A stretch of 64,000 nucleotides of DNA from an uncultured Acidobacteriota bacterium (GTDB lineage: Bacteria; Acidobacteriota; Thermoanaerobaculia; UBA5066; Gp7-AA6): positions 2,270,346 through 2,334,345 of the forward strand of contig CAWGSA010000002.1 of the NCBI GenBank assembly GCA_963825175.1. The letters are read 5' to 3'. The notes beneath the pieces are model-generated. The model was not told where the DNA came from, made no database searches, and was given only the letters and a program-made list of their open reading frames with translations. Position 1 is the first letter of the stretch, and each line of letters starts with the position of its first letter. Both the position numbers and the translations under genes were made by a program. Below, one piece after another: positions 29,855 to 38,430 of the stretch.

Positions 29855-30859
29855 TCACGATTCCGGGGCCAGCTTCACGGCGGCGCGCACTCTCTCCATC
29901 GTGTCCTCGGCCACGAGGCGCGCCTGCGCGTCGCCGGCATGGAGGACCTCCCCGACCACATTGCCGGAGGACGCCAGAAGCTCGGCGCGCTTCTGGCGGA
30001 AGCGCTCCAGCGCCGGGTTTAGATTCGAGATCAGGTGCTTCTTGCAGTCCACGCAGCCCCTGGCCGCGGTGCGGCATTCCTCGTCCACCACCCGGACCTG
30101 GTCACTCGGCGAATAGAGGACGTGAAAGGGAAACAGGTTGCAGTTGTCGGGATTGCCCGGATCCTGCCGGCGCGCGCGCGCCGGGTCGGTGACCATCGCC
30201 ATCACCTTCTGCGCCACCGACTCCGCCGGCTCGGTCACTCCGATGGTGTTGTTGTAGGACTTGGACATCTTGCGCCCGTCGACTCCGTTGATCCGCGGCG
30301 TGGGGGTGTACAGCGCTTTCGGCTCGGGAAAGACCTCGCCGTAGAGGCTGTTGAACCGCCGGATGATCTCCCGGCAGATCTCCAGATGACTGGCCTGATC
30401 TTCGCCGACCGGCACGTGCTGCGCCCGGTACAGCGCGATGTCCGCCGTCATCAGGACCGGATATCCGAGAAACCCGTGCGTTCCGAGATCCCGGCTGCGA
30501 AGCTGTTCGATCTGGTCCTTGTAGGTCGGAACCCGCTCGAGCCATCCGAGCGGCGTGATCATGGAGAAATAGAGCGCGAGCTCCGCGTGCTGGGGAACGC
30601 GGGACTGAAGGAAGATCGTCGCCTTGCCGGGGTCGAGTCCAACCGCCAGCCAGTCCAGGACCGCGTCCCGCGTGTACATCGCCAGGGACGCGGTGTCGGC
30701 GTAGTCGGTGGTCAGGGCATGGAGGTCGGCGACGAAGAAAAAGCACCGGTACTCGCCGCTGTTCTGGAGGTCGACCCAGTTCTTCACCGCCCCGAAATAG
30801 TTGCCCAGGTGCACCCGCCCGGTCGGCCGCAGCCCGGAGAGAACGACGCGGTCGGTCAC
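29855..30859 (-). CDS. trpS: Tryptophan--tRNA ligase
   Basis: SGLRPTGRVHLGNYFG (HIGH) and KMSKS are present. 334 aa. Confidence 0.9.
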   Translation of the reverse strand: MTDRVVLSGLRPTGRVHLGNYFGAVKNWVDLQNSGEYRCFFFVADLHALTTDYADTASLAMYTRDAVLDWLAVGLDPGKATIFLQSRVPQHAELALYFSMITPLGWLERVPTYKDQIEQLRSRDLGTHGFLGYPVLMTADIALYRAQHVPVGEDQASHLEICREIIRRFNSLYGEVFPEPKALYTPTPRINGVDGRKMSKSYNNTIGVTEPAESVAQKVMAMVTDPARARRQDPGNPDNCNLFPFHVLYSPSDQVRVVDEECRTAARGCVDCKKHLISNLNPALERFRQKRAELLASSGNVVGEVLHAGDAQARLVAEDTMERVRAAVKLAPES

Positions 30860-31519
30860 GACAGGATCCGCTGGAGAAGAGCGCTGACCACGGCGAACAC
30901 CGGACCGAGGATCCTTCCGAGAATCCCGGTGGCGGACAGCATGACCAGGATGAGGAACCCGAAGGGAGCGAGGGAGTTGAACACTCGGCGCGCACCGGAT
31001 CCGAGGATCGACGCCAGGACCCCGCTGCCGTCGAGCGGCGGGATCGGGATCAGGTTGAAGATGGCCAGGCTCAGGTTGACCCGCAGGAACGCCAGCGCGA
31101 CCTGCAGGAGCGGCGCCCCGACGGTGTCGGCCAGCGTCGTGTGGGAGCCGACCCGGCTGATGACGATCAGCGCGACCACGGCGAAGGCGGCCAGTAAGAA
31201 GTTCGACGCCGGGCCGGCGGCGGAGACGACGAAGTCGGCGAGTCGGGGATTCTTGGTGTTGCGCAGGTCGACCGGCGTCGGCTTGGCGTATCCGAAGATC
31301 AGGCCCGAGGTCATGTACAGGAGAATCGGAAGGAGGATCGACCCGAAGGGATCGATGTGGCGGATGGGATTCAAGCTGATCCGCCCCTGGTCCCTGGCCG
31401 TCGTGTCCCCCAGCAGCAGCGCGGCAAGCGCGTGGGCCGACTCGTGGAACGAGATGGCGAAGAGAATGACCGCCAGCTGGATCGTGAAGTCGAGAACCTT
31501 GGCCGCGTTGAATCCCAAA
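30856..31519 (-). CDS. Site-2 protease (M50) family membrane metalloprotease
   Basis: HESAHAL (HExxH) and NLIPIPPLDGS (LDG). It overlaps the trpS start. Its own start is uncertain; I infer a TTG near 31519, because the track ORF over-extends to 32076. Confidence 0.65.
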
Positions 31520-31583
31520 GCGACGGGACTATATCGGAATGGGCCGGTTTCGGGCAGAAGCCGCGATCCGCCAGCACGAGGAT

Positions 31584-32200
31584 CTACTTCGCGGACGCCT
31601 CGTCGCGCACGTCGGGCAACTTCAGGGTCCGCCGCAAGGCCCGGAAATACTGAACGGGCTCCTCCCGCCAGGCCTTCTCCTCGATGGAGGCCGGGAACCG
31701 GCCGCCGAGCTCGCCCAGATACGTGTACGTCACACGGCACCGGTTGTCGCGCAGCGGCTCGACGAGCGTCTCGCCCGAGACCTTTTCGATCCGGACTCCT
31801 TCGTGCGGGTCCCCGGGTTTGGCGTCGGCTTCCCACGAAAGCACGAACCGTCCTCCCTCCTCGCTCCGGCCGCGGTAACGGATCACCGCGTCGCGGTTGC
31901 GCAGCGGAAAGGGGTACGGCCATACGACGTGAAGCCGCGCCGCGGCGTCCCGCTCCTCCAGGACCCGAGCGGTCTTCAGGGCCGGGGCGAAGATCTGTTT
32001 GTATCTTCCGTAGTCGGTCAACACCCGTTCCACCGCCGTGGACGGGGTGGCCAGCTCCGCCGATCCCCGCACCCATGGGGCGGAACCGGGCATCCGCGCG
32101 ATCTCGACCTTCACCCCCCTCGAAACGAACCAGCTCTCGAAGCGCGAGCCGGCCGGGGCCCCCGCCAGGCCGAGGAGAAACGGGAGGACCGCCAGGACGC
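31584..32200 (-). CDS. SRPBCC/START-like (polyketide cyclase fold) probable secreted or lipoprotein
   Basis: RVLTDYGRYKQIFAPALKTARVLEERD..RLHVVWPYPFPLRNRDAVIRY..VSGETLVEP..CRVTYTY fits the Bet v1-like fold. A hydrophobic leader VLSVLAVLPFLLGLAGAPAGS lies upstream. The start codon is unresolved. Confidence 0.45.
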
Positions 32201-32620
32201 TCAGGACGCCCGCCGCGCGAGAAGAAGGAGCGCCACCGACGCCGCCACCAGGACCAGATCTTCGGCCACCGTCCCCCAACCGAGGGGGCGCGCCAGGAAG
32301 ACGCCGAAGCAGCCGCAGTTGGCCAGCTTCAAGCCCCGCTCGATCGCCGCGGCGGACCAGGTCGCATAAGCCAGGTGCGCGGCCGTCGAGGTGAGCGCCG
32401 ACGCCACCAGCGCCCGGCCGCTGAAGAGCCACATCGCCAGCACGAGCTCCGCGATGGGGATCAAGACGGCGAGCGGCCGAAGAGACGCCTCCGGAAGAGC
32501 CCGGTATGTCCCGAGCACGCGAGCGAAGCCGCCGACGTCGAGCAGTTTCCCGACGGCCGTGGCGAGCAGGATCACCCCAATCGCCACCCGCAGGAATGCC
32601 GCCGCTCGCCTCCTCCCCAT
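32201..32620 (-). CDS. MauE/DoxX-like small membrane protein
   Basis: Four TM helices with CGCFG (LANCGCFGVF), typical of the MauE/DoxX family. Confidence 0.5.
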   Translation of the reverse strand: MGRRRAAAFLRVAIGVILLATAVGKLLDVGGFARVLGTYRALPEASLRPLAVLIPIAELVLAMWLFSGRALVASALTSTAAHLAYATWSAAAIERGLKLANCGCFGVFLARPLGWGTVAEDLVLVAASVALLLLARRAS

Positions 32621-32677
32621 GTCAGTCCGGCTCGAGCGCCCGCCGCGCGGCGAGATCCCGATTAACCCCGAGCCGCG

Positions 32678-33439
32678 TCACTGGGCATTGAGCGTCCAAT
32701 CGTACGGGATGAATTCGACCTTCCAATCGGCGGGGATCTTGTCGTCGCGGTACTGGTTGACGTACGCGATGAGGGAAGGCGCTTTCTGGGTGAAGTCCCC
32801 GGTATAGAACTGGAGGATCTGCGACAGATGGACGGTCTGCTTGTCGGGCTCGAGCCGGACGTTGCGCTCCTCGTTGTAGAACTCCCTGGCCTGCCGGTCG
32901 AGTTGCTGGTCCAGCTTGTCCGCTTCGAACGCCTCGCGCGGGAGGCGGGGACAGCCGCGGGCCATGCAGTTCAAGGCCACGTGGACGCGGGGATCTCCCA
33001 TCGGGCGGACGACCTTGTTCTCGAGCTCGTACAGAGACAGGGAGCGGCCCCCGATCTCGAACCGGTTCTTGTAGAAGAAGGTGACCTTGACCTTGTCGAG
33101 GTTGGCCGGAAAATCCGATTTCAGGACGTCGTACATGGCGACCGCGTTGTAGGTGTTGATGTCGTACGCGAGCTTCGAGGCCGGGGTGGAGAAAGAGGGA
33201 GGGTCCGACTCCGGGCCCACCCTCGCCGCCCAGGCCAGATAGGCGTTCAGGCTGGCCGGGTCCTTGGCCATCCCGCGGAAGTCCATGCGTCCTTTGTCAT
33301 CGACGAACCGGGAAAGATGATCGGCCCACGCCTTCTGGGGCGAGGCGCCGGCCGAAGGGGCGGCCTGGGGAGGCGCGATCCGCACTGCGCAGGCGCAGGC
33401 GAAAGCCAGGAAGGCAACGAGGCGGAGAATCTTGTTCAT
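32678..33439 (-). CDS. DUF547-domain secreted protein
   Basis: Signal peptide MNKILRLVAFLAFACACA. DUF547 signature YNAVAMYDVL...HVALNCMARGCPRL. Confidence 0.7.
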   Translation of the reverse strand: MNKILRLVAFLAFACACAVRIAPPQAAPSAGASPQKAWADHLSRFVDDKGRMDFRGMAKDPASLNAYLAWAARVGPESDPPSFSTPASKLAYDINTYNAVAMYDVLKSDFPANLDKVKVTFFYKNRFEIGGRSLSLYELENKVVRPMGDPRVHVALNCMARGCPRLPREAFEADKLDQQLDRQAREFYNEERNVRLEPDKQTVHLSQILQFYTGDFTQKAPSLIAYVNQYRDDKIPADWKVEFIPYDWTLNAQ

Positions 33440-33455
33440 GGCTCTCCTCGCTGGA

Positions 33456-34718
33456 TCATTGAAGAACGGGAAGGGCGGAGCCGGACAGCGGATTCCAGAG
33501 GCGCCGCCCCTCTCCCGTGTCGAGCGTGATCGGTTTCAGGATGAACTCGTCGCGGCGGGCGTTGTGGGCGCACATGGAGATCGGCCCGTCCGCGGTCATG
33601 ACCATGAAAGAGCAGGCGTGCACCCGCTCGGGGTCGAGCGCCGTCGCGTCCATGAAATTCTGGACGAAGAAGGAGAGCTTGTGGACTCTCCCGCGCGCCG
33701 CCAGCAGGTCCCGCCGCATCTTCCAGAGCTTCGGGAGGAAGAACTTCGCGGAGCGGACCAGCCAGCTCGGCCGGCGCAGGGCTTCGCGGACCAGGGCGCT
33801 CACGGCCGCCCGCGGCGAGCGGCGATCGAGCATCACGTGCTCGAAGTCCACCAGGAACCGGTTGAAGAACTCCGCGTCGTCGTTCAGGTCGTACAGCCGG
33901 CCATTGGCCGCGAGCGTGATTCCGATGCGGTGACAGTCCGGATGTCCGATCAGGATCGTGTCCCACGAGATCGGCGTCTCCGCGCCCTCGCAGATCTTGG
34001 CGCGGACGGTCGCGAGCGAGATCACCCGGTCCCGCTCGCGCAGGATCCCGCGCCCCGTGTCGGCCTGGAGCTGGAACGACCCCATGCCCACGACGTCGGC
34101 ATGGCGCCGGAAGAATCGGATCAAGTCAGGGATCTCCTCGAAGTTCTCGCGGCACACCGTCGTATTGAAGATCACCGCGATCGGCAGGCCCCGGGCCCGC
34201 TCGATGTACTCGCGGCGAACGGCGTTCAAGTCCTCCTCCGTGGCGTAGCCCTTGCGCTCCTGGGTCACGTCGACGTGAAACGCCACGTCGTTCAACCCGG
34301 CCCGTGAGAGCTCCTGGAGAAGGTCCCGCGTGGCCTTGATGCCGTTGGTCATGAGAGTGGGGAGCATTCCCCGGTCGCGGACGCGGCGCACGATCGCGAC
34401 GAGTTCGGACCTCTCCCGCAGGGTCGGGTCGCCGCCGGTGATCTGCACGGACGTTGGGGCTCCGAACTGCGCCTGGATCGCATCGATCCGCCGGAACACT
34501 TCGGGCAGCGGGAGGTCCTTGACTCTCTCCGAGTTCTCCGAGAGGTAGCAGAGGGTGCAGTCGAGGTTGCACCGCTGCGTGATCTCGAGCGCGACGCATC
34601 CGATCGCATTGCGGCGGCCCAGGACCTGGTTGTCTCGAAAGTGCTCCCCCATCCGAAGACGGGTCGCCCCCAGGGCCTGTGCGCGGTTCTCGCTCTCTGC
34701 GACGGGTACACGGCTCAT
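33456..34718 (-). CDS. Radical SAM enzyme (CxxxCxxC), subfamily unassigned
   Basis: ITQRCNLDCTLCY cluster, a glycine-rich SAM motif ITGGDPTL, and a C-terminal Cys pair CSFMVMTADGPISMC. RBS GGAGGATGAGGAGGGG precedes the ATG. Confidence 0.8.
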   Translation of the reverse strand: MSRVPVAESENRAQALGATRLRMGEHFRDNQVLGRRNAIGCVALEITQRCNLDCTLCYLSENSERVKDLPLPEVFRRIDAIQAQFGAPTSVQITGGDPTLRERSELVAIVRRVRDRGMLPTLMTNGIKATRDLLQELSRAGLNDVAFHVDVTQERKGYATEEDLNAVRREYIERARGLPIAVIFNTTVCRENFEEIPDLIRFFRRHADVVGMGSFQLQADTGRGILRERDRVISLATVRAKICEGAETPISWDTILIGHPDCHRIGITLAANGRLYDLNDDAEFFNRFLVDFEHVMLDRRSPRAAVSALVREALRRPSWLVRSAKFFLPKLWKMRRDLLAARGRVHKLSFFVQNFMDATALDPERVHACSFMVMTADGPISMCAHNARRDEFILKPITLDTGEGRRLWNPLSGSALPVLQ

Positions 34719-34873
34719 CGCCCCTCCTCATCCTCCAAAATGGTCAGAACCGGTGGACCGGACCGGGTTGCTCTTCGGAGATCATACGGGAAACGGATGT
34801 GCATGGATCTCGAGGCTTTTGCCGCTCGCCGGTCCCCGTGGGACCGCGCCGGGGCCCCTCGGGCCTTGCGGGC

Positions 34874-34899
34874 GAAACCTCCGGCCTCCCCCGACGTCT
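34874..34899 (+). promoter_or_regulatory. Candidate ECF-type promoter GAAAC-N16-CGTCT upstream of the ECF sigma gene (autoregulation)
   Basis: The -35 AAC and -10 CGTC core with 16-nt spacing is characteristic of group IV sigma promoters. It lies about 25 nt upstream of the ATG at 34924. Confidence 0.4.
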
Positions 34900-34923: not shown

Positions 34924-35509
34924 GATGATGAGGCCGGGAGCGGGAGCGGAGGACCGGGCGCTCCTCGAGCGGGTCCGCCGTGGCGACACGGACGGAGCGG
35001 CGGAGCTCTTCGACCGCTACGCCCCGGCCCTGTTGCGCTTCGCGGACCGTCTCCTGTCGGACCGGAGCACGGCGGAAGAGGTGACCCAGGAGGTCTTCGT
35101 CAAGGTGATATCCCGAGCCCATCAATACGACGGCCGCGCGGAAGTGGCCTCCTGGCTCTTCGCCATCGCCGCCAACGCCTGCCGGGACCGACGGCGGCGC
35201 GACCGCCGGGCCACGGTTGTGCCGCTCGACGCCGTCGCGGAGCCGGCGGACGCCCCGAAGGGAGAGGGGGTTCTGGGCCGTATGGTGGAGCGCGAGAAGC
35301 GCGATGCCGTCCGCCAGGCCCTCGCGCTCCTCTCGGAGGAACAGCGGGAGGCCCTCATCCTGGCGCGCTACCAGGGACTCCCCTATGCCGAGATCGCCCG
35401 CATCCTCGGGATCTCGGTTGGAGCGGTCAAGACACGCATCTTCCGGGCCGTCGAGACGCTCAAGGCCCGTTTCTCGGAAGGAGAAGCCTCATGGAATGCC
35501 GCGAATTGA
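34924..35509 (+). CDS. ECF (group IV) RNA polymerase sigma-70 factor
   Basis: Region 2 LLERVRRGDTDGAAELFDRYAPALLRFA..EEVTQEVFVKV and region 4 YQGLPYAEIARILGISVGAVKTRIFRA. The true ATG is at 34924, inside the longer track ORF. Confidence 0.85.
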
Positions 35510-36417
35510 TCGAACGCGCGGTCGGGCTGTGGACGGGCGAGCTGGATGAGCCCGACCGAAGGGAGCTCGAGCAGCACCGCCTCTCCTGCTCCGCCTGCCG
35601 GCTGGAGCTCTCGAGACTGGAAGAGACCTGGGCCGCGCTGCTCGCCGATCCGGACGCCGACGTCACGGCCGACTTGCGCCGGCGCACACTCGAGCTGATG
35701 GAGGACGAGATGACGCGCCGGCGCATCCGCGCCTTCCGGCCTCGCCGGCGCTGGATGGGTCCGGTGGCGCAAGCAGCCGCGGTCCTTTTGGCGGCGGGAG
35801 CGGGTTGGCTGGCTCACCGGCCGGCTGCACCGGCCCCGACGCCGGTCCTCGGAGCCGCCGCCTCGACGCCGGGTCCGGCTTCGGGCGTTTTGTCCAACGT
35901 CTCCTACCGGCCCACCGACCAGCAGGGGAAGGTCGCCGTCTCTTTCGACGTGACCTCGCACCAGACGGTCGTGGGACGACCCGAGGACCCGGCGATGACC
36001 AACCTCCTCGCCTATCTCGTCTCGCGGGGAGCCCAGACCTCCGGAGAGAAATCCCAGGCCATCGAGCTCGTCTCCTCCCACTACGGGACGGGGACCGCGC
36101 CGGTCTCGCCCGAGATCGTCCGCGCGCTGACCGTGACCCTGAAGAAGGATCAGAACCCGGGCGTGCGCAAGAAGGCGGCCGATGCGCTGGCCGGCTTTCC
36201 CGTCACGGCGGAGATCCGCGCGGCGTTCCTCGACGCGCTCCAGACCGATCGCAACCCGGCCGTGCGGCTGGTCGCCGTCGACGCGCTGGCCGCGGCGGCC
36301 AAGCAATCCCCCGATCCGCGCACGATCGAGTCGCTGCGGGAAAAGGCGTCGGATCCCTCGGAGAACGGCTTCGTCCGCGCCAAGGCGGCGTCGGCCCTGA
36401 AGGGGATGGAGTTTTGA
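35491..36417 (+). CDS. Anti-sigma factor (ZAS-type zinc finger, one TM) with C-terminal HEAT/PBS-lyase repeats
   Basis: HRLSCSACRLELSRLEE (HxxxCxxC), TM MGPVAQAAAVLLAAGAGWLA, then repeated ...NPGVRKKAADALAG..DRNPAVRLVAVDALA..ENGFVRAKAASAL. It overlaps the sigma gene by 19 nt. Confidence 0.7.
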   Translation: MECRELIERAVGLWTGELDEPDRRELEQHRLSCSACRLELSRLEETWAALLADPDADVTADLRRRTLELMEDEMTRRRIRAFRPRRRWMGPVAQAAAVLLAAGAGWLAHRPAAPAPTPVLGAAASTPGPASGVLSNVSYRPTDQQGKVAVSFDVTSHQTVVGRPEDPAMTNLLAYLVSRGAQTSGEKSQAIELVSSHYGTGTAPVSPEIVRALTVTLKKDQNPGVRKKAADALAGFPVTAEIRAAFLDALQTDRNPAVRLVAVDALAAAAKQSPDPRTIESLREKASDPSENGFVRAKAASALKGMEF

Positions 36418-36447
36418 GGTCCTGCGATTCGGGAACGGAGTAACTTC

Positions 36448-38430
36448 GTGAGCACCGTCGCGTCTCTCTCGACGATGAAGATCCAAACGACTCCGCGCGG
36501 GCAGGCCGCATCCGACCGCCCGGCCCTCTGGCTCGCGCTCCTGGCGGGTCTCATCCTGATGGCCATCGCCGCCGCGGCCCGCTCCGAGGTCGGAGGCTTC
36601 CAGGCCCGGCGGACCGAGAACTTCACTGCGACGCTCGCTTCCGGCGCGACGCTCAAGGTCGAGAACGTCTCCGGGGACATCGTGGCAAAGCCGGGCCGCG
36701 CGTTTGCGGCCGTCGTCACCATCGTGGTGACAGCGCCGACTCAGAAGGAAGCCGAGGAGCTCCTGTCCGCCACGCGCGTCACCCAGTCGCGGGAAGGAGA
36801 CGACGTTTCCCTGGAAACACACTGGCCGGGATCGGACGAACGGCACGTTCGGGGATCGCGCTCCTGGGTCACGCGCCAGATCCACCCGCTGCCGTGCCGG
36901 CAGTGCCGCATCACGGCTCAGTACGAGCTGACCGTTCCGCCTGGAATCCGGACGGCGCTCAACAACGTCAACGGCGACGTCCGGGCCGACGATCTCGACG
37001 CCGACCTGAGCCTCCAGACGGTCAATGGCGCCGTGTCCGTGCGCGGGGCGCGCCGGTCGGTCACCGCCCACAGCGTCAACGGCAAGGTGAATCTCGTTTC
37101 CCGGAGTCTTCCGCCGGCGGCGCGGATCGACCTCAAGACCGTCAACGGCGCGGTGCTCGCGACCCTGCCCCGCGAGGCGAAGTTCCAGCTGTCGGCTTCG
37201 TCCATGAACGGGGTCATCGCGTCCACCTTCGCATTGCCCCCGCGCGCCGAGACCGACGCCGACGAGGTCATCGCTCCGCGGCCGGTCGTGGCGCCGAATC
37301 CTCCCCGCACGCCCAGGGCCCCGCGCCGGATCGTCATCGAGAAGGACGGCGACGAAGACGACGTGGTGGTCGACTTGAAGGAGCTCGAGAAAGAGCTCGA
37401 GGAATCGATGCGCGAGGTCGACGTGGAGGTGCAGAGAAACGTCCGGGGAGTCGACCGCCAGGTGCGCCGGATGCGGATTCTTCCCGGAGGCGACTACACC
37501 GGCTCGATCGGGCAGGGCGGAGCGGCCGTGCACGCGTCGACGTTGAACGGCTCGATCACCGTGCTCGCCAGTGGCACCGTCGAAAACGAGGCGAAGGTCC
37601 TGGTGTCCCCCCGGCGGTCATTCTCCGTCGAGGTGCCGCGCGTGCCGATGCCGCACGTCGAGGTGAGGATTCCTCGGATCGAAGTGAGGGCTCCGCGCGC
37701 CATCATTCCGCGCACGCTCGTCCGGGTCGAGTCCGGCCTGCCGGGAGCGGAGGACGAAGTGGTGCGGGGCGACGTGGCCGGCGACTTTCTGGCCACTTCC
37801 GGCAGCGGAAGCTATCGGATCGGAAACGTGACGGGCCGGGTGAAGGTCCTGACCCAGGCCGGCGAGATTCATGTCGGCTCCATCGGCGCAGGCGCCGAGC
37901 TGAAGACCTACGGGGGCGACATCACGATCGGGCCGGTCCATGGAGACCTGAAGGCTCTGACCATGGCCGGCGACGTGCATGCCGGCGCCGTCACGGGCTC
38001 CGCGACGGTCGACACGTCCGGCGGCGACGTCCGCATCGAGCGCATCGGCGGAGCGGCCGACGTCCGCACCGGAGGCGGGGACATCGTGCTGCCGGCGGTG
38101 GCCGGAGCCGTCGAAGCCCACAGCAGCGGCGGCGACGTCCGCGTGGATCTCGTCTCGCGGGATCCCCGGGGTCCCATCGTGATCCACAACGGCGGCGGGG
38201 ACGTGACCCTGACCCTGCCTCGCGACATGCGCGCGGACGTCGAGCTCGACGTGACCGATTGCGGCGACCCGGGGGACAGTTTCATACGATCGGACTTTCC
38301 CGAAATCTCGGTGCTGCGGCGCAGCGACTCGGCCCACGCTTCGGGCGCCTTGAACGGCGGCGGCACCCGCGTCCTCGTGCGCACCAGCTCCGGAACGATC
38401 CGCATCCGCAAGGGGCCGGCCTCGCAATAG
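36448..38430 (+). CDS. DUF4097-type (putative adhesin / beta-helix repeat) protein with N-terminal TM anchor
   Basis: Many repeats of (T/S)xNGxV, (S/T)GGDV, GDV..R..G across 660 aa. The third-position GC bias supports this frame over the antisense ORFs. This is a common third gene of ECF/anti-sigma modules. Confidence 0.6.
   Translation: MSTVASLSTMKIQTTPRGQAASDRPALWLALLAGLILMAIAAAARSEVGGFQARRTENFTATLASGATLKVENVSGDIVAKPGRAFAAVVTIVVTAPTQKEAEELLSATRVTQSREGDDVSLETHWPGSDERHVRGSRSWVTRQIHPLPCRQCRITAQYELTVPPGIRTALNNVNGDVRADDLDADLSLQTVNGAVSVRGARRSVTAHSVNGKVNLVSRSLPPAARIDLKTVNGAVLATLPREAKFQLSASSMNGVIASTFALPPRAETDADEVIAPRPVVAPNPPRTPRAPRRIVIEKDGDEDDVVVDLKELEKELEESMREVDVEVQRNVRGVDRQVRRMRILPGGDYTGSIGQGGAAVHASTLNGSITVLASGTVENEAKVLVSPRRSFSVEVPRVPMPHVEVRIPRIEVRAPRAIIPRTLVRVESGLPGAEDEVVRGDVAGDFLATSGSGSYRIGNVTGRVKVLTQAGEIHVGSIGAGAELKTYGGDITIGPVHGDLKALTMAGDVHAGAVTGSATVDTSGGDVRIERIGGAADVRTGGGDIVLPAVAGAVEAHSSGGDVRVDLVSRDPRGPIVIHNGGGDVTLTLPRDMRADVELDVTDCGDPGDSFIRSDFPEISVLRRSDSAHASGALNGGGTRVLVRTSSGTIRIRKGPASQ

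What the first reader, a model, noticed from the sequence alone, without database searches (positions are those of the whole stretch)
30856..34718. Uncharacterised radical-SAM / DUF547 / MauE-like / SRPBCC / site-2-protease gene string, divergent from an ECF sigma module
Five co-directional, tightly spaced genes on the minus strand follow trpS, in this order:
- a radical SAM enzyme (CNLDCTLC; no SPASM domain, but a C-terminal Cys pair);
- a secreted DUF547 protein;
- a MauE/DoxX-like CGCFG membrane protein;
- a signal-peptide SRPBCC (lipid- or polyketide-binding fold) protein;
- an M50 site-2 protease.

The string is transcribed away from an ECF sigma/anti-sigma operon 200 nt upstream. A site-2 protease is the classic intramembrane protease that releases ECF sigma factors from their anti-sigma factors.

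None of these proteins carries a recognisable biosynthetic partner. The combination of a radical-SAM enzyme with envelope proteins points to an envelope lipid or small-molecule modification system, or to a signalling system, whose chemistry is unknown.
Basis: inference. Interest (0 to 1): 0.6.

Follow-up and report, generated by a model that had tools for sequence, protein, structure and literature searches.

The report
Tes-like radical SAM, DUF547, MauE cassette
Three of the five flagged genes (a cut-down relative of the archaeal tetraether-lipid synthase, a DUF547 lipoprotein and a MauE membrane protein) form an uncharacterised cassette kept together in at least four bacterial phyla and tied elsewhere to arsenic-sugar gene clusters, while the protease belongs to the neighbouring housekeeping operon.

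Summary
All five genes are real and correctly typed, but they are not one unit.

**Core cassette.** Across 80 genomes from four groups, only three genes travel together: the radical SAM gene (80/80), DUF547 directly downstream (68/80) and MauE (41 adjacent, 4 nearby). The START/SRPBCC gene is an Acidobacteriota-only add-on.

**M50 protease.** It is the first gene of the M50[23 protein letters not shown] operon. Its stop overlaps the trpS start. In three related genomes it sits directly opposite the same ECF sigma operon with no cassette between them.

[quoted passage not shown] It keeps the radical SAM core and the C-terminal cluster domain and lacks both N-terminal metal domains. It fails the Tes and TrsS family cut-offs.

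**DUF547.** It is a lipoprotein with an invariant C-x4-C-P motif and no solved structural relative. It recruits thioredoxin-fold partners.

**Arsenic link.** DUF547 sits inside canonical arsenosugar operons in 18 of 80 independent ArsS loci. The whole cassette lies in organoarsenic islands in 13 of 19 Bdellovibrionota loci.

**Best reading.** A lipid-tail-modifying module with a periplasmic thiol-redox arm, possibly handling organoarsenic lipids. The chemistry is unproven. A role for the site-2 protease in sigma release is not supported.

The parts
33456..34718 (-). Radical SAM enzyme (420 aa). A truncated Tes/GDGT-MAS-like protein with the radical SAM core and a C-terminal auxiliary-cluster domain. 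First gene of the cassette.
   Evidence: Pfam PF04055. Best NCBIfam hits are TrsS (100.8 bits, cut-off 490) and Tes (93 bits, cut-off 450). Best solved relative by sequence is 7tol GDGT-MAS, E 1e-20, with a second match in the C-terminal domain. The AF2 model matches 7tol/7tom by Foldseek at E 7e-15 over about 402 columns; the next hit is at 3e-7. C41, C50, C54, C57, C262, C369, C383, M372 and M382 are at least 98% conserved in 81 sequences.
32678..33439 (-). DUF547 lipoprotein (253 aa) with an invariant H-x-A-L-N-C-x4-C-P motif. Second gene of the cassette.
   Evidence: PF04784, E 4e-22. No NCBIfam model matches even at E 10. Lipobox Cys17 plus C158 and C163 are invariant. The AF2 model has pLDDT 86 and pTM 0.85, with no PDB match below E 1. 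It lies directly downstream of the radical SAM gene in 68/80 loci.
32201..32620 (-). MauE/DoxX-like membrane protein (139 aa) with an invariant N-C-G-C-F-G motif. Third gene of the cassette.
   Evidence: PF07291, E 1.5e-19. Invariant residues across 47 sequences. It lies directly after DUF547 in 41 loci and nearby in 4 more.
31584..32204 (-). START/SRPBCC lipid-binding-fold protein with a probable signal peptide (about 206 aa; start codon uncertain, CTG 32204 proposed). An accessory gene found only in Acidobacteriota.
   Evidence: PF01852, 26 bits against 22. A homolog carries Polyketide_cyc2. It is present in 17 Acidobacteriota loci only, including L007 and L013, which lie in a different genomic context.
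30856..31518 (-). Small M50 metalloprotease (220 aa, no PDZ domain). NOT part of the cassette. It is the first gene of the M50[23 protein letters not shown] housekeeping operon.
   Evidence: PF02163, 48 bits. RseP models score 10 and 8 bits against cut-offs of 147 and 477. There is a 4-nt stop/start overlap with trpS. In L081-L083 M50 lies next to trpS/scpA and opposite the sigma operon with no cassette. L023, L011, L016 and L017 separate it from the cassette.
34771..34789 (-). Conserved 19-nt block (CCGTATGATCTCCGAAGAG on the minus strand; contains TATGAT) about 55-70 nt upstream of the radical SAM start codon. It is a candidate -10 element or operator. A GGAGG ribosome-binding site follows.
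   Evidence: Alignment of 12 Acidobacteriota intergenic regions, conserved in 10 of them. Sequence. Function not tested.
34874..34898 (+). ECF-type promoter (GAAACC-N15-CGTC, followed by TC) pointing at the ECF sigma gene. It belongs to the neighbouring sigma operon, not to the cassette.
   Evidence: It is the most conserved block of the intergenic alignment. It is the only match in the 64-kb window, although a single match is expected by chance, so the support comes from conservation.

Best explanation
The functional unit is a three-gene cassette, radical SAM - DUF547 - MauE, with a START/SRPBCC add-on in Acidobacteriota. The M50 protease and the ECF sigma operon are merely the two flanks of the site where the cassette sits.

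**Inferred mechanism**
1. The cytoplasmic radical SAM enzyme is a trimmed Tes/GDGT-MAS relative. It binds the hydrophobic tail of a membrane lipid. 5'-deoxyadenosyl radical abstracts a hydrogen from an unactivated tail carbon, and the C-terminal [4Fe-4S] cluster handles the radical intermediate.
2. On the outer face of the inner membrane, the DUF547 lipoprotein acts on the product or a co-substrate through its C-x4-C-P dithiol.
3. MauE (its CGC motif lies in a hydrophobic stretch; topology not computed), or a thioredoxin-fold partner in other lineages, keeps DUF547 in the right redox state.
4. A periplasmic lipid-binding protein (START here, chalcone-isomerase-like elsewhere) carries the hydrophobic product.

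**Leading candidate for the chemistry:** organoarsenic (arsenosugar or arsenolipid) metabolism, at about 0.3 on its own. DUF547 is a recurrent member of arsenosugar operons, and the whole cassette is embedded in arsenic islands in Bdellovibrionota.

**Shown:** gene content, co-conservation, fold relationship, conserved cysteines, genomic contexts.
**Inferred:** substrate, topology, redox relay, arsenic involvement in this organism.
For: **Co-conservation**
- Unbiased clustering of all ORFs in 80 loci found only three families shared by all four taxon groups.
- DUF547 lies directly downstream in 68/80 loci and MauE in 41 (gene maps).

**Tes relationship**
-. The Tes paper notes bacterial homologues of unknown role and a substrate C-S(cluster) intermediate at the C-terminal cluster (PMC9433317).
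- Our protein keeps C262, C369, C383 and M372/M382 invariant.

**Redox arm**
- DUF547 keeps C158 and C163-P invariant in every subfamily.
- It is fused to DUF1223 carrying a CxxC in four Alteromonas-type loci.
- A TlpA/ResA-like thioredoxin follows MauE in 7 Nitrospinota loci.
- In plants DUF547 is fused to glutaredoxin (PMC13621322).

**Lipid theme**
- START in 17 Acidobacteriota loci.
- Chalcone_3 in 10 Bdellovibrionota and Proteobacteria loci.
- A VTT/DedA membrane protein in a paralogous cassette.

**Arsenic link**
- ArsS (441-448 bits, cut-off 300), ArsM, ArsC, TIGR04169, MTAP-like and nucleoside hydrolase genes surround the cassette in 13/19 Bdellovibrionota loci, in different gene orders.
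- ArsS-DUF547-MauE form one operon in L045.
- A TIGR04283-like glycosyltransferase precedes the radical SAM gene in three Acidobacteriota loci.
- In an independent set of 80 metagenomic ArsS loci, DUF547 is present in 18, in the order AsSugarArsM-DUF547-TIGR04283.

**Separability from the flanks:**
Against: - No arsenic gene lies in this 64-kb window (tblastn). Most Acidobacteriota, Nitrospinota and Proteobacteria loci show none within about 7 kb.
- The 18 arsenosugar-operon DUF547 genes are a different subfamily (24-37% identity) and come without the Tes-like enzyme or MauE.
- The radical SAM model is only moderate (pLDDT 69, TM 0.54 to 7tol). A lipid pocket could not be inspected.
- The enzyme lacks both N-terminal metal domains of Tes, so its chemistry may differ.
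- Some relatives are solitary, next to dus (L085/L086).
- No experiment exists for any member. Zero papers mention DUF547 together with radical SAM.
Confidence: 0.45

Rival explanations
1. All five genes form one envelope system wired to the ECF sigma module. The M50 site-2 protease cleaves the adjacent anti-sigma factor, and the cassette is part of that stress response.
For: - M50 and the sigma/anti-sigma/DUF4097 operon are conserved neighbours in this lineage, with or without the cassette.
- The anti-sigma factor has an anti-sigma-like N-terminal region (NF052375, 42 bits, below its cut-off of 100), a hydrophobic stretch read from its translation and C-terminal HEAT repeats.
- A different ECF sigma heads a paralogous cassette operon in L013 and L084.
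Against: - M50 is translationally coupled to trpS and heads a housekeeping operon.
- It has no PDZ domain and scores 10 bits on RseP, cut-off 147.
- The cassette can be absent, partial or located elsewhere while sigma and M50 stay together.
- Outside Acidobacteriota the cassette has neither a sigma factor nor an M50 neighbour.
- The only ECF-type promoter points at the sigma gene.
Confidence: 0.1
2. The radical SAM enzyme is the missing acidobacterial tail-to-tail condensing enzyme. It would make iso-diabolic acid or branched GDGT membrane-spanning lipids, a bacterial functional equivalent of Tes.
For: - Tes/GDGT-MAS is the closest characterised relative by sequence and fold.
- The host is an Acidobacteriota relative.
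- The START protein could carry a lipid.
Against: - The same cassette, at 53-60% identity, occurs in Alteromonas, Roseomonas, Methylomonas, Nitrospinota and Bdellovibrionota. To my knowledge none of these is known for membrane-spanning lipids.
- It scores far below the Tes cut-off and lacks the rubredoxin and N-terminal cluster domains.
- This model does not explain the obligatory DUF547 and MauE partners or the arsenic-island context.
Confidence: 0.12
3. The cassette makes or detoxifies a soluble organoarsenic (or other metalloid) small molecule rather than a lipid. The radical SAM enzyme would form or rearrange a C-As or C-C bond on a sugar or nucleoside, and DUF547 plus MauE would reduce or bind the arsenical in the periplasm.
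For: - The cassette sits among ArsS, ArsM, ArsC and nucleoside-processing genes.
- DUF547 sits inside canonical arsenosugar operons.
- A vicinal-type dithiol motif suits As(III) binding; this is inference.
Against: - The closest fold is a lipid-tail enzyme.
- Lipid-binding accessory proteins (START, Chalcone_3, VTT/DedA) recur.
- No arsenic genes lie near the cassette in most lineages.
Confidence: 0.15
4. A protein or peptide maturation system. It would resemble MauE's role in methylamine dehydrogenase maturation, or a RiPP pathway in which the radical SAM enzyme cross-links a peptide.
For: - MauE is named for a role in maturing a cysteine-rich periplasmic enzyme subunit (from knowledge of the family).
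- Many radical SAM enzymes mature peptides.
Against: - There is no SPASM domain.
- Gaps inside the cassette are 16 and 57 nt, leaving no room for a precursor gene.
- No conserved small ORF or dehydrogenase gene emerged from the clustering, although it only included ORFs of at least 80 aa.
- Tes is the best fold match.
Confidence: 0.05

Closest known systems
Tes / GDGT-MAS (MJ0619; NCBIfam NF045702; PDB 7tol, 7tom), the archaeal tetraether lipid synthase
   Same: - It is the best solved relative by sequence (E 1e-20) and by fold (Foldseek E 7e-15 over about 402 columns).
- Both share the CX3CX2C radical SAM core and a C-terminal domain with conserved Cys and Met. In GDGT-MAS this domain holds the [4Fe-4S]C cluster that captures the lipid radical.
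   Different: - It scores 93 bits against a 450-bit family cut-off.
- At 420 aa it is about 100 residues shorter than the 526-residue 7tol chain, and it lacks the N-terminal rubredoxin domain and the [4Fe-4S]N domain.
- It is bacterial and always paired with DUF547 and usually MauE. I know of no such partners reported for Tes.
- The product is unknown.
TrsS, radical SAM (seleno)protein (NCBIfam NF045646)
   Same: It is the highest-scoring NCBIfam model, and the alignment is nearly full length (residues 41-386 against model positions 87-430).
   Different: - It scores 100.8 bits against a 490-bit cut-off.
- TrsS is itself uncharacterised. It is known only from a selenoprotein survey, and the primary paper could not be read.
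Arsenosugar biosynthesis cluster (ArsS TIGR04167, AsSugarArsM NF038099, TIGR04282 and TIGR04283 glycosyltransferases, TIGR04169 AhpD-like protein)
   Same: - DUF547 lipoproteins with the same C-x4-C-P motif are operon members in 18/80 ArsS loci.
- The full cassette is interleaved with these genes in Bdellovibrionota.
- A TIGR04283-like glycosyltransferase abuts the cassette in three Acidobacteriota loci.
   Different: - None of these genes is in the window.
- The Tes-like enzyme and MauE are absent from the 80 sampled ArsS loci.
- The window's DUF547 belongs to a different subfamily.
MauE/MauD of methylamine dehydrogenase maturation, and DoxX-family thiol-redox membrane proteins
   Same: - It matches the Pfam MauE family with its conserved CGC motif.
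- It pairs with a periplasmic cysteine-motif protein, and in Nitrospinota with a TlpA/ResA-like thioredoxin reminiscent of MauD.
   Different: - No conserved neighbour other than the three cassette families emerged from the clustering, and methylamine dehydrogenase genes were not searched for specifically.
- The partner is DUF547, not MauD.
RseP/RasP-type site-2 proteases that release ECF sigma factors
   Same: It has the M50 HExxH and NxxPxxxLDG motifs, and a single-pass anti-sigma factor is encoded nearby.
   Different: - It is 220 aa with no PDZ domain.
- It scores 10 and 8 bits against cut-offs of 147 and 477.
- It is co-translated with trpS in a housekeeping operon.

Membership tests
Tes / GDGT-MAS tetraether lipid synthase (NF045702) | Whole-protein score at or above the curated NCBIfam cut-off (450 bits) | tested here: not met
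   93 bits, matching only residues 42-246.
Tes / GDGT-MAS tetraether lipid synthase (NF045702) | Radical SAM CX3CX2C cluster motif in a partial TIM barrel | tested here: met
   C50, C54 and C57 are 99% conserved. PF04055 matches.
Tes / GDGT-MAS tetraether lipid synthase (NF045702) | N-terminal rubredoxin domain (C9-X2-C12-X20-C33-X2-H36) and N-terminal [4Fe-4S] domain (C73, C77, C80, His) | tested here: not met
   The alignment to 7tol starts at chain residue 110, which corresponds to query residue 42. The query has only about 40 residues before the radical SAM motif and one Cys there, C41.
Tes / GDGT-MAS tetraether lipid synthase (NF045702) | C-terminal auxiliary [4Fe-4S] cluster domain | tested here: inconclusive
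   A second phmmer match aligns query 341-406 to chain 447-513, placing C369 and C383 on chain cysteines. Foldseek aligns about 402 columns. C262, C369, C383, M372 and M382 are invariant. Cluster binding itself was not tested.
Tes / GDGT-MAS tetraether lipid synthase (NF045702) | Tail-to-tail C-C coupling of two lipid chains | not testable with these tools
   This needs lipidomics or an enzyme assay.
TrsS radical SAM (seleno)protein (NF045646) | Whole-protein score at or above 490 bits | tested here: not met
   100.8 bits.
SPASM/twitch radical SAM peptide maturases | SPASM (PF13186) C-terminal domain | tested here: not met
   Only PF04055 and Fer4_12 match.
DUF547 (PF04784) | Pfam gathering score of 27 bits | tested here: met
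   79 bits.
MauE (PF07291) | Pfam gathering score of 27 bits | tested here: met
   71 bits. The CGC motif is invariant.
MauE as part of a methylamine-utilisation (mau) cluster | Neighbouring methylamine dehydrogenase subunit genes and mauD | tested here: not met
   No conserved neighbour family other than the radical SAM gene and DUF547 appeared across 80 loci. A TlpA-like thioredoxin occurs in Nitrospinota only. The mau genes were not searched for by name.
START/SRPBCC | Pfam START gathering score of 22 bits | tested here: met
   26 bits, which is marginal. A homolog carries weak Polyketide_cyc2 hits.
RseP-type site-2 protease | RseP model score (TIGR00054 cut-off 147; PRK10779 cut-off 477) and PDZ domains | tested here: not met
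   10.3 and 8.1 bits. Pfam finds only Peptidase_M50. The protein is 220 aa.
Arsenosugar biosynthesis gene cluster | ArsS (TIGR04167) and arsenite methyltransferase genes in the same neighbourhood | tested here: not met
   For this window, tblastn with ArsS, ArsM, the glycosyltransferase, the nucleoside hydrolase and CHI found nothing. The feature is met in related Bdellovibrionota loci.

The most novel reading that the evidence does not exclude
The Tes-like enzyme attaches arsenic to the end of a membrane-lipid tail. It would trap the lipid carbon radical with a trivalent methylarsenical instead of a second lipid tail. That would make it the long-sought synthase of arsenic-containing fatty acyl lipids (arsenolipids). 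DUF547 and MauE would then be the periplasmic dithiol system that binds or redox-cycles the arsenical head, and START or CHI-like proteins would ferry the product to the outer membrane.
Probability: 0.12. Interest if true: 0.9.

Novelty: new variant of a known kind. Interest (0 to 1): 0.62.

Why it matters
- **Palaeoclimate proxies.** Bacterial Tes homologues are being counted in metagenomes as markers of branched-GDGT production (PMC11868695, PMC10087280), yet none has been characterised. This work shows that one widespread bacterial branch is a distinct, truncated enzyme locked to two unknown envelope proteins. It also occurs in organisms that, to my knowledge, are not known to make membrane-spanning lipids. 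Such hits should not be read as tetraether synthases.
- **First context for bacterial DUF547.** The family is shown to be a lipoprotein with a dithiol motif that recruits thioredoxin-fold partners, and to be a regular but unannotated member of arsenosugar operons.
- **A testable lead.** If the arsenic link holds, the cassette points to unknown steps in bacterial organoarsenic lipid metabolism. Culturable hosts (Alteromonas, Roseomonas) are available for testing.

Tried and rejected
- **P0096 "fusion".** This 665-aa protein looked like a radical SAM-DUF547 fusion. Its sequence shows a frameshifted read-through, so it is not a real fusion.
- **"ArsS" in Nitrospinota.** tblastn hits in L037 and L039 are a different SPASM-type radical SAM gene, not ArsS.
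- **ECF promoter for the cassette.** I looked for an ECF-type promoter driving the radical SAM gene. The sigma gene's own motif (GAAACC-N15-CGTC) occurs only once in the window and faces the sigma gene. The generic sigma-70 and terminator scans gave nothing useful in this 68% GC DNA.
- **Source record.** The window's radical SAM protein was not on record by exact look-up. The organism is therefore inferred only from relatives, which are Acidobacteriota/Thermoanaerobaculia MAGs.
- **TrsS primary paper.** Haft & Tolstoy 2025 is not held in the library.
- **Second M50 protease.** No second or RseP-type M50 was found in the window by motif scan.
- **Direction of the indel.** Whether the cassette was inserted here or lost in L081-L083 cannot be decided. 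Partial forms (L011, L023) show that decay does occur.

Full report
**Observation.** The window is about 68% GC and consists mostly of housekeeping genes.
- Radical_SAM, 33456-34718. It has CNLDCTLC and no SPASM domain.
- DUF547, 32678-33439.
- MauE, 32201-32620.
- START/SRPBCC, 31584 to about 32204.
- Peptidase_M50, 30856-31518.

Some details need refining. DUF547 is a lipoprotein, with a lipobox Cys conserved in 89% of homologs. The M50 protein starts at TTG 31518, giving 220 aa identical to database protein P0241. The START gene has no canonical start codon ahead of its hydrophobic N-terminus, although its homologs do. A CTG at 32204 overlapping the MauE stop is the likeliest start. The M50 stop and the trpS start overlap as GTGA.

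**Which genes belong together.** I fetched 80 genomic loci encoding relatives of the radical SAM protein (53-88% identity). They came from Acidobacteriota (22), Nitrospinota (19), Bdellovibrionota and allies (19) and Proteobacteria (20), the last including cultured Alteromonas and Roseomonas. An all-against-all clustering of every ORF in these loci found only three families present in all four groups: the radical SAM enzyme, DUF547 and MauE.
- DUF547 lies directly downstream on the same strand in 68 of 80 loci; nine loci are cut short.
- MauE follows directly in 41 loci and is nearby in four more.
- START is restricted to 17 Acidobacteriota loci, but there it moves with the cassette into a different genomic context (L007, L013).
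- M50, trpS, scpA, the ECF sigma factor, the anti-sigma factor and DUF4097 are Acidobacteriota-only neighbours.

**M50 and the sigma operon are flanks, not parts.** Several loci separate M50 from the cassette:
- L023 has the radical SAM gene followed directly by M50-trpS-scpA, with DUF547, MauE and START missing.
- L011 has the radical SAM gene, DUF547, then M50.
- L016 and L017 have 2.7 kb inserted before M50.

The decisive case comes from three large Acidobacteriota contigs found through M50 homologs (L081-L083). They show DUF4097 <- anti-sigma(HEAT) <- ECF sigma | M50 -> (trpS) -> scpA -> scpB -> rluB -> cmk -> rpsA -> HU, with no cassette at all. The window has exactly this arrangement (recG, an epimerase, the sigma operon, then M50[20 protein letters not shown]) plus the four extra genes in between. 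The cassette is therefore an indel between two older neighbours. The direction, gain or loss, cannot be decided.

M50 here lacks PDZ domains and scores 10 bits on the RseP model, against a cut-off of 147.

The intergenic alignment shows a strongly conserved ECF-type promoter (GAAACC-N15-CGTCTC, 34874-34898) facing the sigma gene. A different conserved block containing TATGAT (34771-34789) lies ahead of the radical SAM gene. So nothing ties the cassette to this sigma factor or to M50. One caveat: a different ECF sigma plus a small ORF head a paralogous cassette operon in L013 and L084. ECF control of such cassettes in Acidobacteria is therefore not excluded.

**The radical SAM enzyme.** Evidence for its relationship to Tes/GDGT-MAS:
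- **NCBIfam.** The best hits are TrsS (100.8 bits, cut-off 490) and Tes (93 bits, cut-off 450). Both are far below threshold.
- **Solved structures.** The best relative is GDGT-MAS (7tol) at E 1e-20, with a second match aligning C369 and C383 to cysteines of its C-terminal domain.
- **Predicted fold.** An AlphaFold model (pLDDT 69, pTM 0.72) matches 7tol/7tom at E 7e-15 over about 402 columns. That is eight orders of magnitude better than any other radical SAM structure.

GDGT-MAS (MJ0619) has a rubredoxin domain, an N-terminal [4Fe-4S] domain, the radical SAM core and a C-terminal [4Fe-4S] domain that forms a C-S bond with the lipid radical. Its authors noted bacterial homologues of unknown role (PMC9433317). 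The window protein lacks both N-terminal domains and keeps the core and the C-terminal domain. C41, C262, C369, C383, M372 and M382 are essentially invariant in 81 sequences. It is therefore a new, trimmed branch of the Tes family and not a member of the curated Tes or TrsS families.

**DUF547 and MauE.** DUF547 gave a confident model (pLDDT 86, pTM 0.85) with no PDB match below E 1. It matches no NCBIfam model. No paper in the library mentions it together with radical SAM, and none of the 25 DUF547 papers listed concerns a bacterial member by title.

Every subfamily keeps H-x-A-x-x-C-x4-C-P. Three independent observations point to a redox-active or ligand-binding dithiol:
- Fusion to a DUF1223 domain with a CxxC in four Alteromonas-type loci. 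DUF1223 is thioredoxin-like by my knowledge of Pfam clans.
- A TlpA/ResA-like thioredoxin after MauE in seven Nitrospinota loci.
- Glutaredoxin fusions in plants (PMC13621322).

MauE keeps an invariant N-C-G-C-F-G motif.

**Context clues to the chemistry.** Lipid-binding or lipid-handling accessory proteins recur:
- START/Polyketide_cyc2 in Acidobacteriota.
- Chalcone-isomerase-like proteins in 10 Bdellovibrionota and Proteobacteria loci.
- A VTT/DedA protein in the paralogous cassette.

More striking is the arsenic context. In 13 of 19 Bdellovibrionota loci the cassette is interleaved, in several different gene orders, with:
- ArsS (441-448 bits, cut-off 300)
- arsenite methyltransferase
- thioredoxin-type ArsC
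- the TIGR04169 arsenosugar-associated AhpD-like protein
- MTAP-like and nucleosidase genes
- an IU-nucleoside hydrolase
- a TIGR04283-like glycosyltransferase

In L045, ArsS, DUF547 and MauE share one operon. A TIGR04283-like glycosyltransferase (179 bits, cut-off 182) sits immediately upstream of the radical SAM gene in three Acidobacteriota loci.

As an independent test I fetched 80 metagenomic ArsS loci. DUF547 homologs were present in 18. A typical order is AhpD-like, ArsS, rhodanese, TIGR04282, PNP, AsSugarArsM (575 bits), DUF547, TIGR04283 (234 bits), with overlapping reading frames. None of these loci had the Tes-like enzyme or MauE. DUF547 is thus a regular but unannotated component of arsenosugar operons, and the window's cassette uses a sister subfamily. 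The window itself has no arsenic genes.

**Interpretation.** The best-supported model has four elements:
- The Tes-like enzyme modifies the tail of a membrane lipid or a similar hydrophobic chain at the cytoplasmic face.
- The DUF547 lipoprotein and MauE form a periplasmic dithiol arm acting on the product or a co-substrate.
- START, or a CHI-like protein elsewhere, carries the product.
- Organoarsenic lipid chemistry is the leading but unproven candidate, at about 0.3.

Rivals:
- The brGDGT-synthase reading. It is attractive given the open question in Acidobacteria. The cassette's presence in Alteromonas, Nitrospinota, Bdellovibrionota and methanotrophs argues against it.
- A soluble organoarsenical pathway.
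- A peptide maturation system. There is no SPASM domain, no room for a precursor gene, and no conserved extra ORF.

**Novelty and verdict.** The genes are real and the cassette is strongly non-random. No component has been characterised. The enzyme is a new variant within the known Tes-like radical SAM kind, and the three-gene system as such appears undescribed. The five-gene unit and the sigma/protease link are not supported. Interest is moderate to high: it bears on how bacterial "Tes homologues" are interpreted, and it gives DUF547 its first functional context.

Noticed in passing
L084:1612-5503 (the same contig as L007): A second, paralogous cassette lies 5 kb from the first. It reads ECF sigma (196 aa), a 113-aa ORF, a Tes-like radical SAM gene (57% identical to the window's), a VTT/DedA-domain membrane protein and a second DUF547, all co-directional. 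Here a DedA-type protein replaces MauE and an ECF sigma heads the operon. A pyridine-nucleotide disulfide oxidoreductase and a nitroreductase lie between the two cassettes.
   Followed up: partly
L101:7487-13640, and 17 other loci among L087-L166: Canonical arsenosugar operons (TIGR04169, ArsS, rhodanese NF045521, TIGR04282, PNP, AsSugarArsM, TIGR04283) contain a DUF547 lipoprotein gene between ArsM and the TIGR04283 glycosyltransferase. No NCBIfam model matches it, so this operon member has no curated NCBIfam family name.
   Followed up: partly
L066:8349-10157, L067:8463-10235, L070:8437-10167, L071:3324-5096: In Alteromonas-type genomes DUF547 is fused to a C-terminal DUF1223 domain carrying a CxxC motif. 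No MauE gene is adjacent in these loci.
   Followed up: partly
window 34874-34898 (+): An ECF-type promoter (GAAACC-N15-CGTCTC) about 27 nt upstream of the sigma gene start is the most conserved element of the intergenic region across 12 genomes. This suggests the sigma/anti-sigma(HEAT)/DUF4097 operon is autoregulated.
   Followed up: partly
window 34771-34789 (-): A conserved 19-nt block (CCGTATGATCTCCGAAGAG) lies upstream of the radical SAM gene in 10 of 12 aligned Acidobacteriota loci. It is missing in L012 and L023. Whether it is a promoter -10 element, an operator or part of the leader is unknown.
   Followed up: no
window 32201-32207: The START/SRPBCC gene has no ATG, GTG or TTG where its homologs start. 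A CTG overlapping the MauE stop codon (CTGA) would give the expected signal-peptide-bearing protein. The alternative start at ATG (ARM|PGS) would remove the signal peptide.
   Followed up: partly
L011 and L023: These are partial cassettes at the same chromosomal site. L011 keeps the radical SAM gene and DUF547 and has lost MauE and START. L023 keeps only the radical SAM gene. The cassette is decaying in some lineages.
   Followed up: partly
L065:5467-11242 (Roseomonas sp. CCTCC AB2023176, complete genome): The cassette is flanked upstream by an FAD-dependent oxidoreductase. Downstream lie a chalcone-isomerase-like protein and a second radical SAM/SPASM enzyme.
   Followed up: no
L085 and L086 (carrying P0088), and L024: A branch of the radical SAM family (66-67% identical) occurs alone, without DUF547 or MauE nearby. 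In L085 and L086 it lies next to a tRNA-dihydrouridine synthase gene.
   Followed up: no
P0096: A 665-aa database protein annotated with both Radical_SAM and DUF547 domains is a frameshifted read-through of two adjacent genes, not a natural fusion.
   Followed up: yes
window 35491-38430 (+): The anti-sigma factor carries C-terminal HEAT repeats. It is followed by a 660-aa DUF4097/LiaG-like 'toastrack' protein. This trio is conserved next to M50 in all related Acidobacteriota loci.
   Followed up: no
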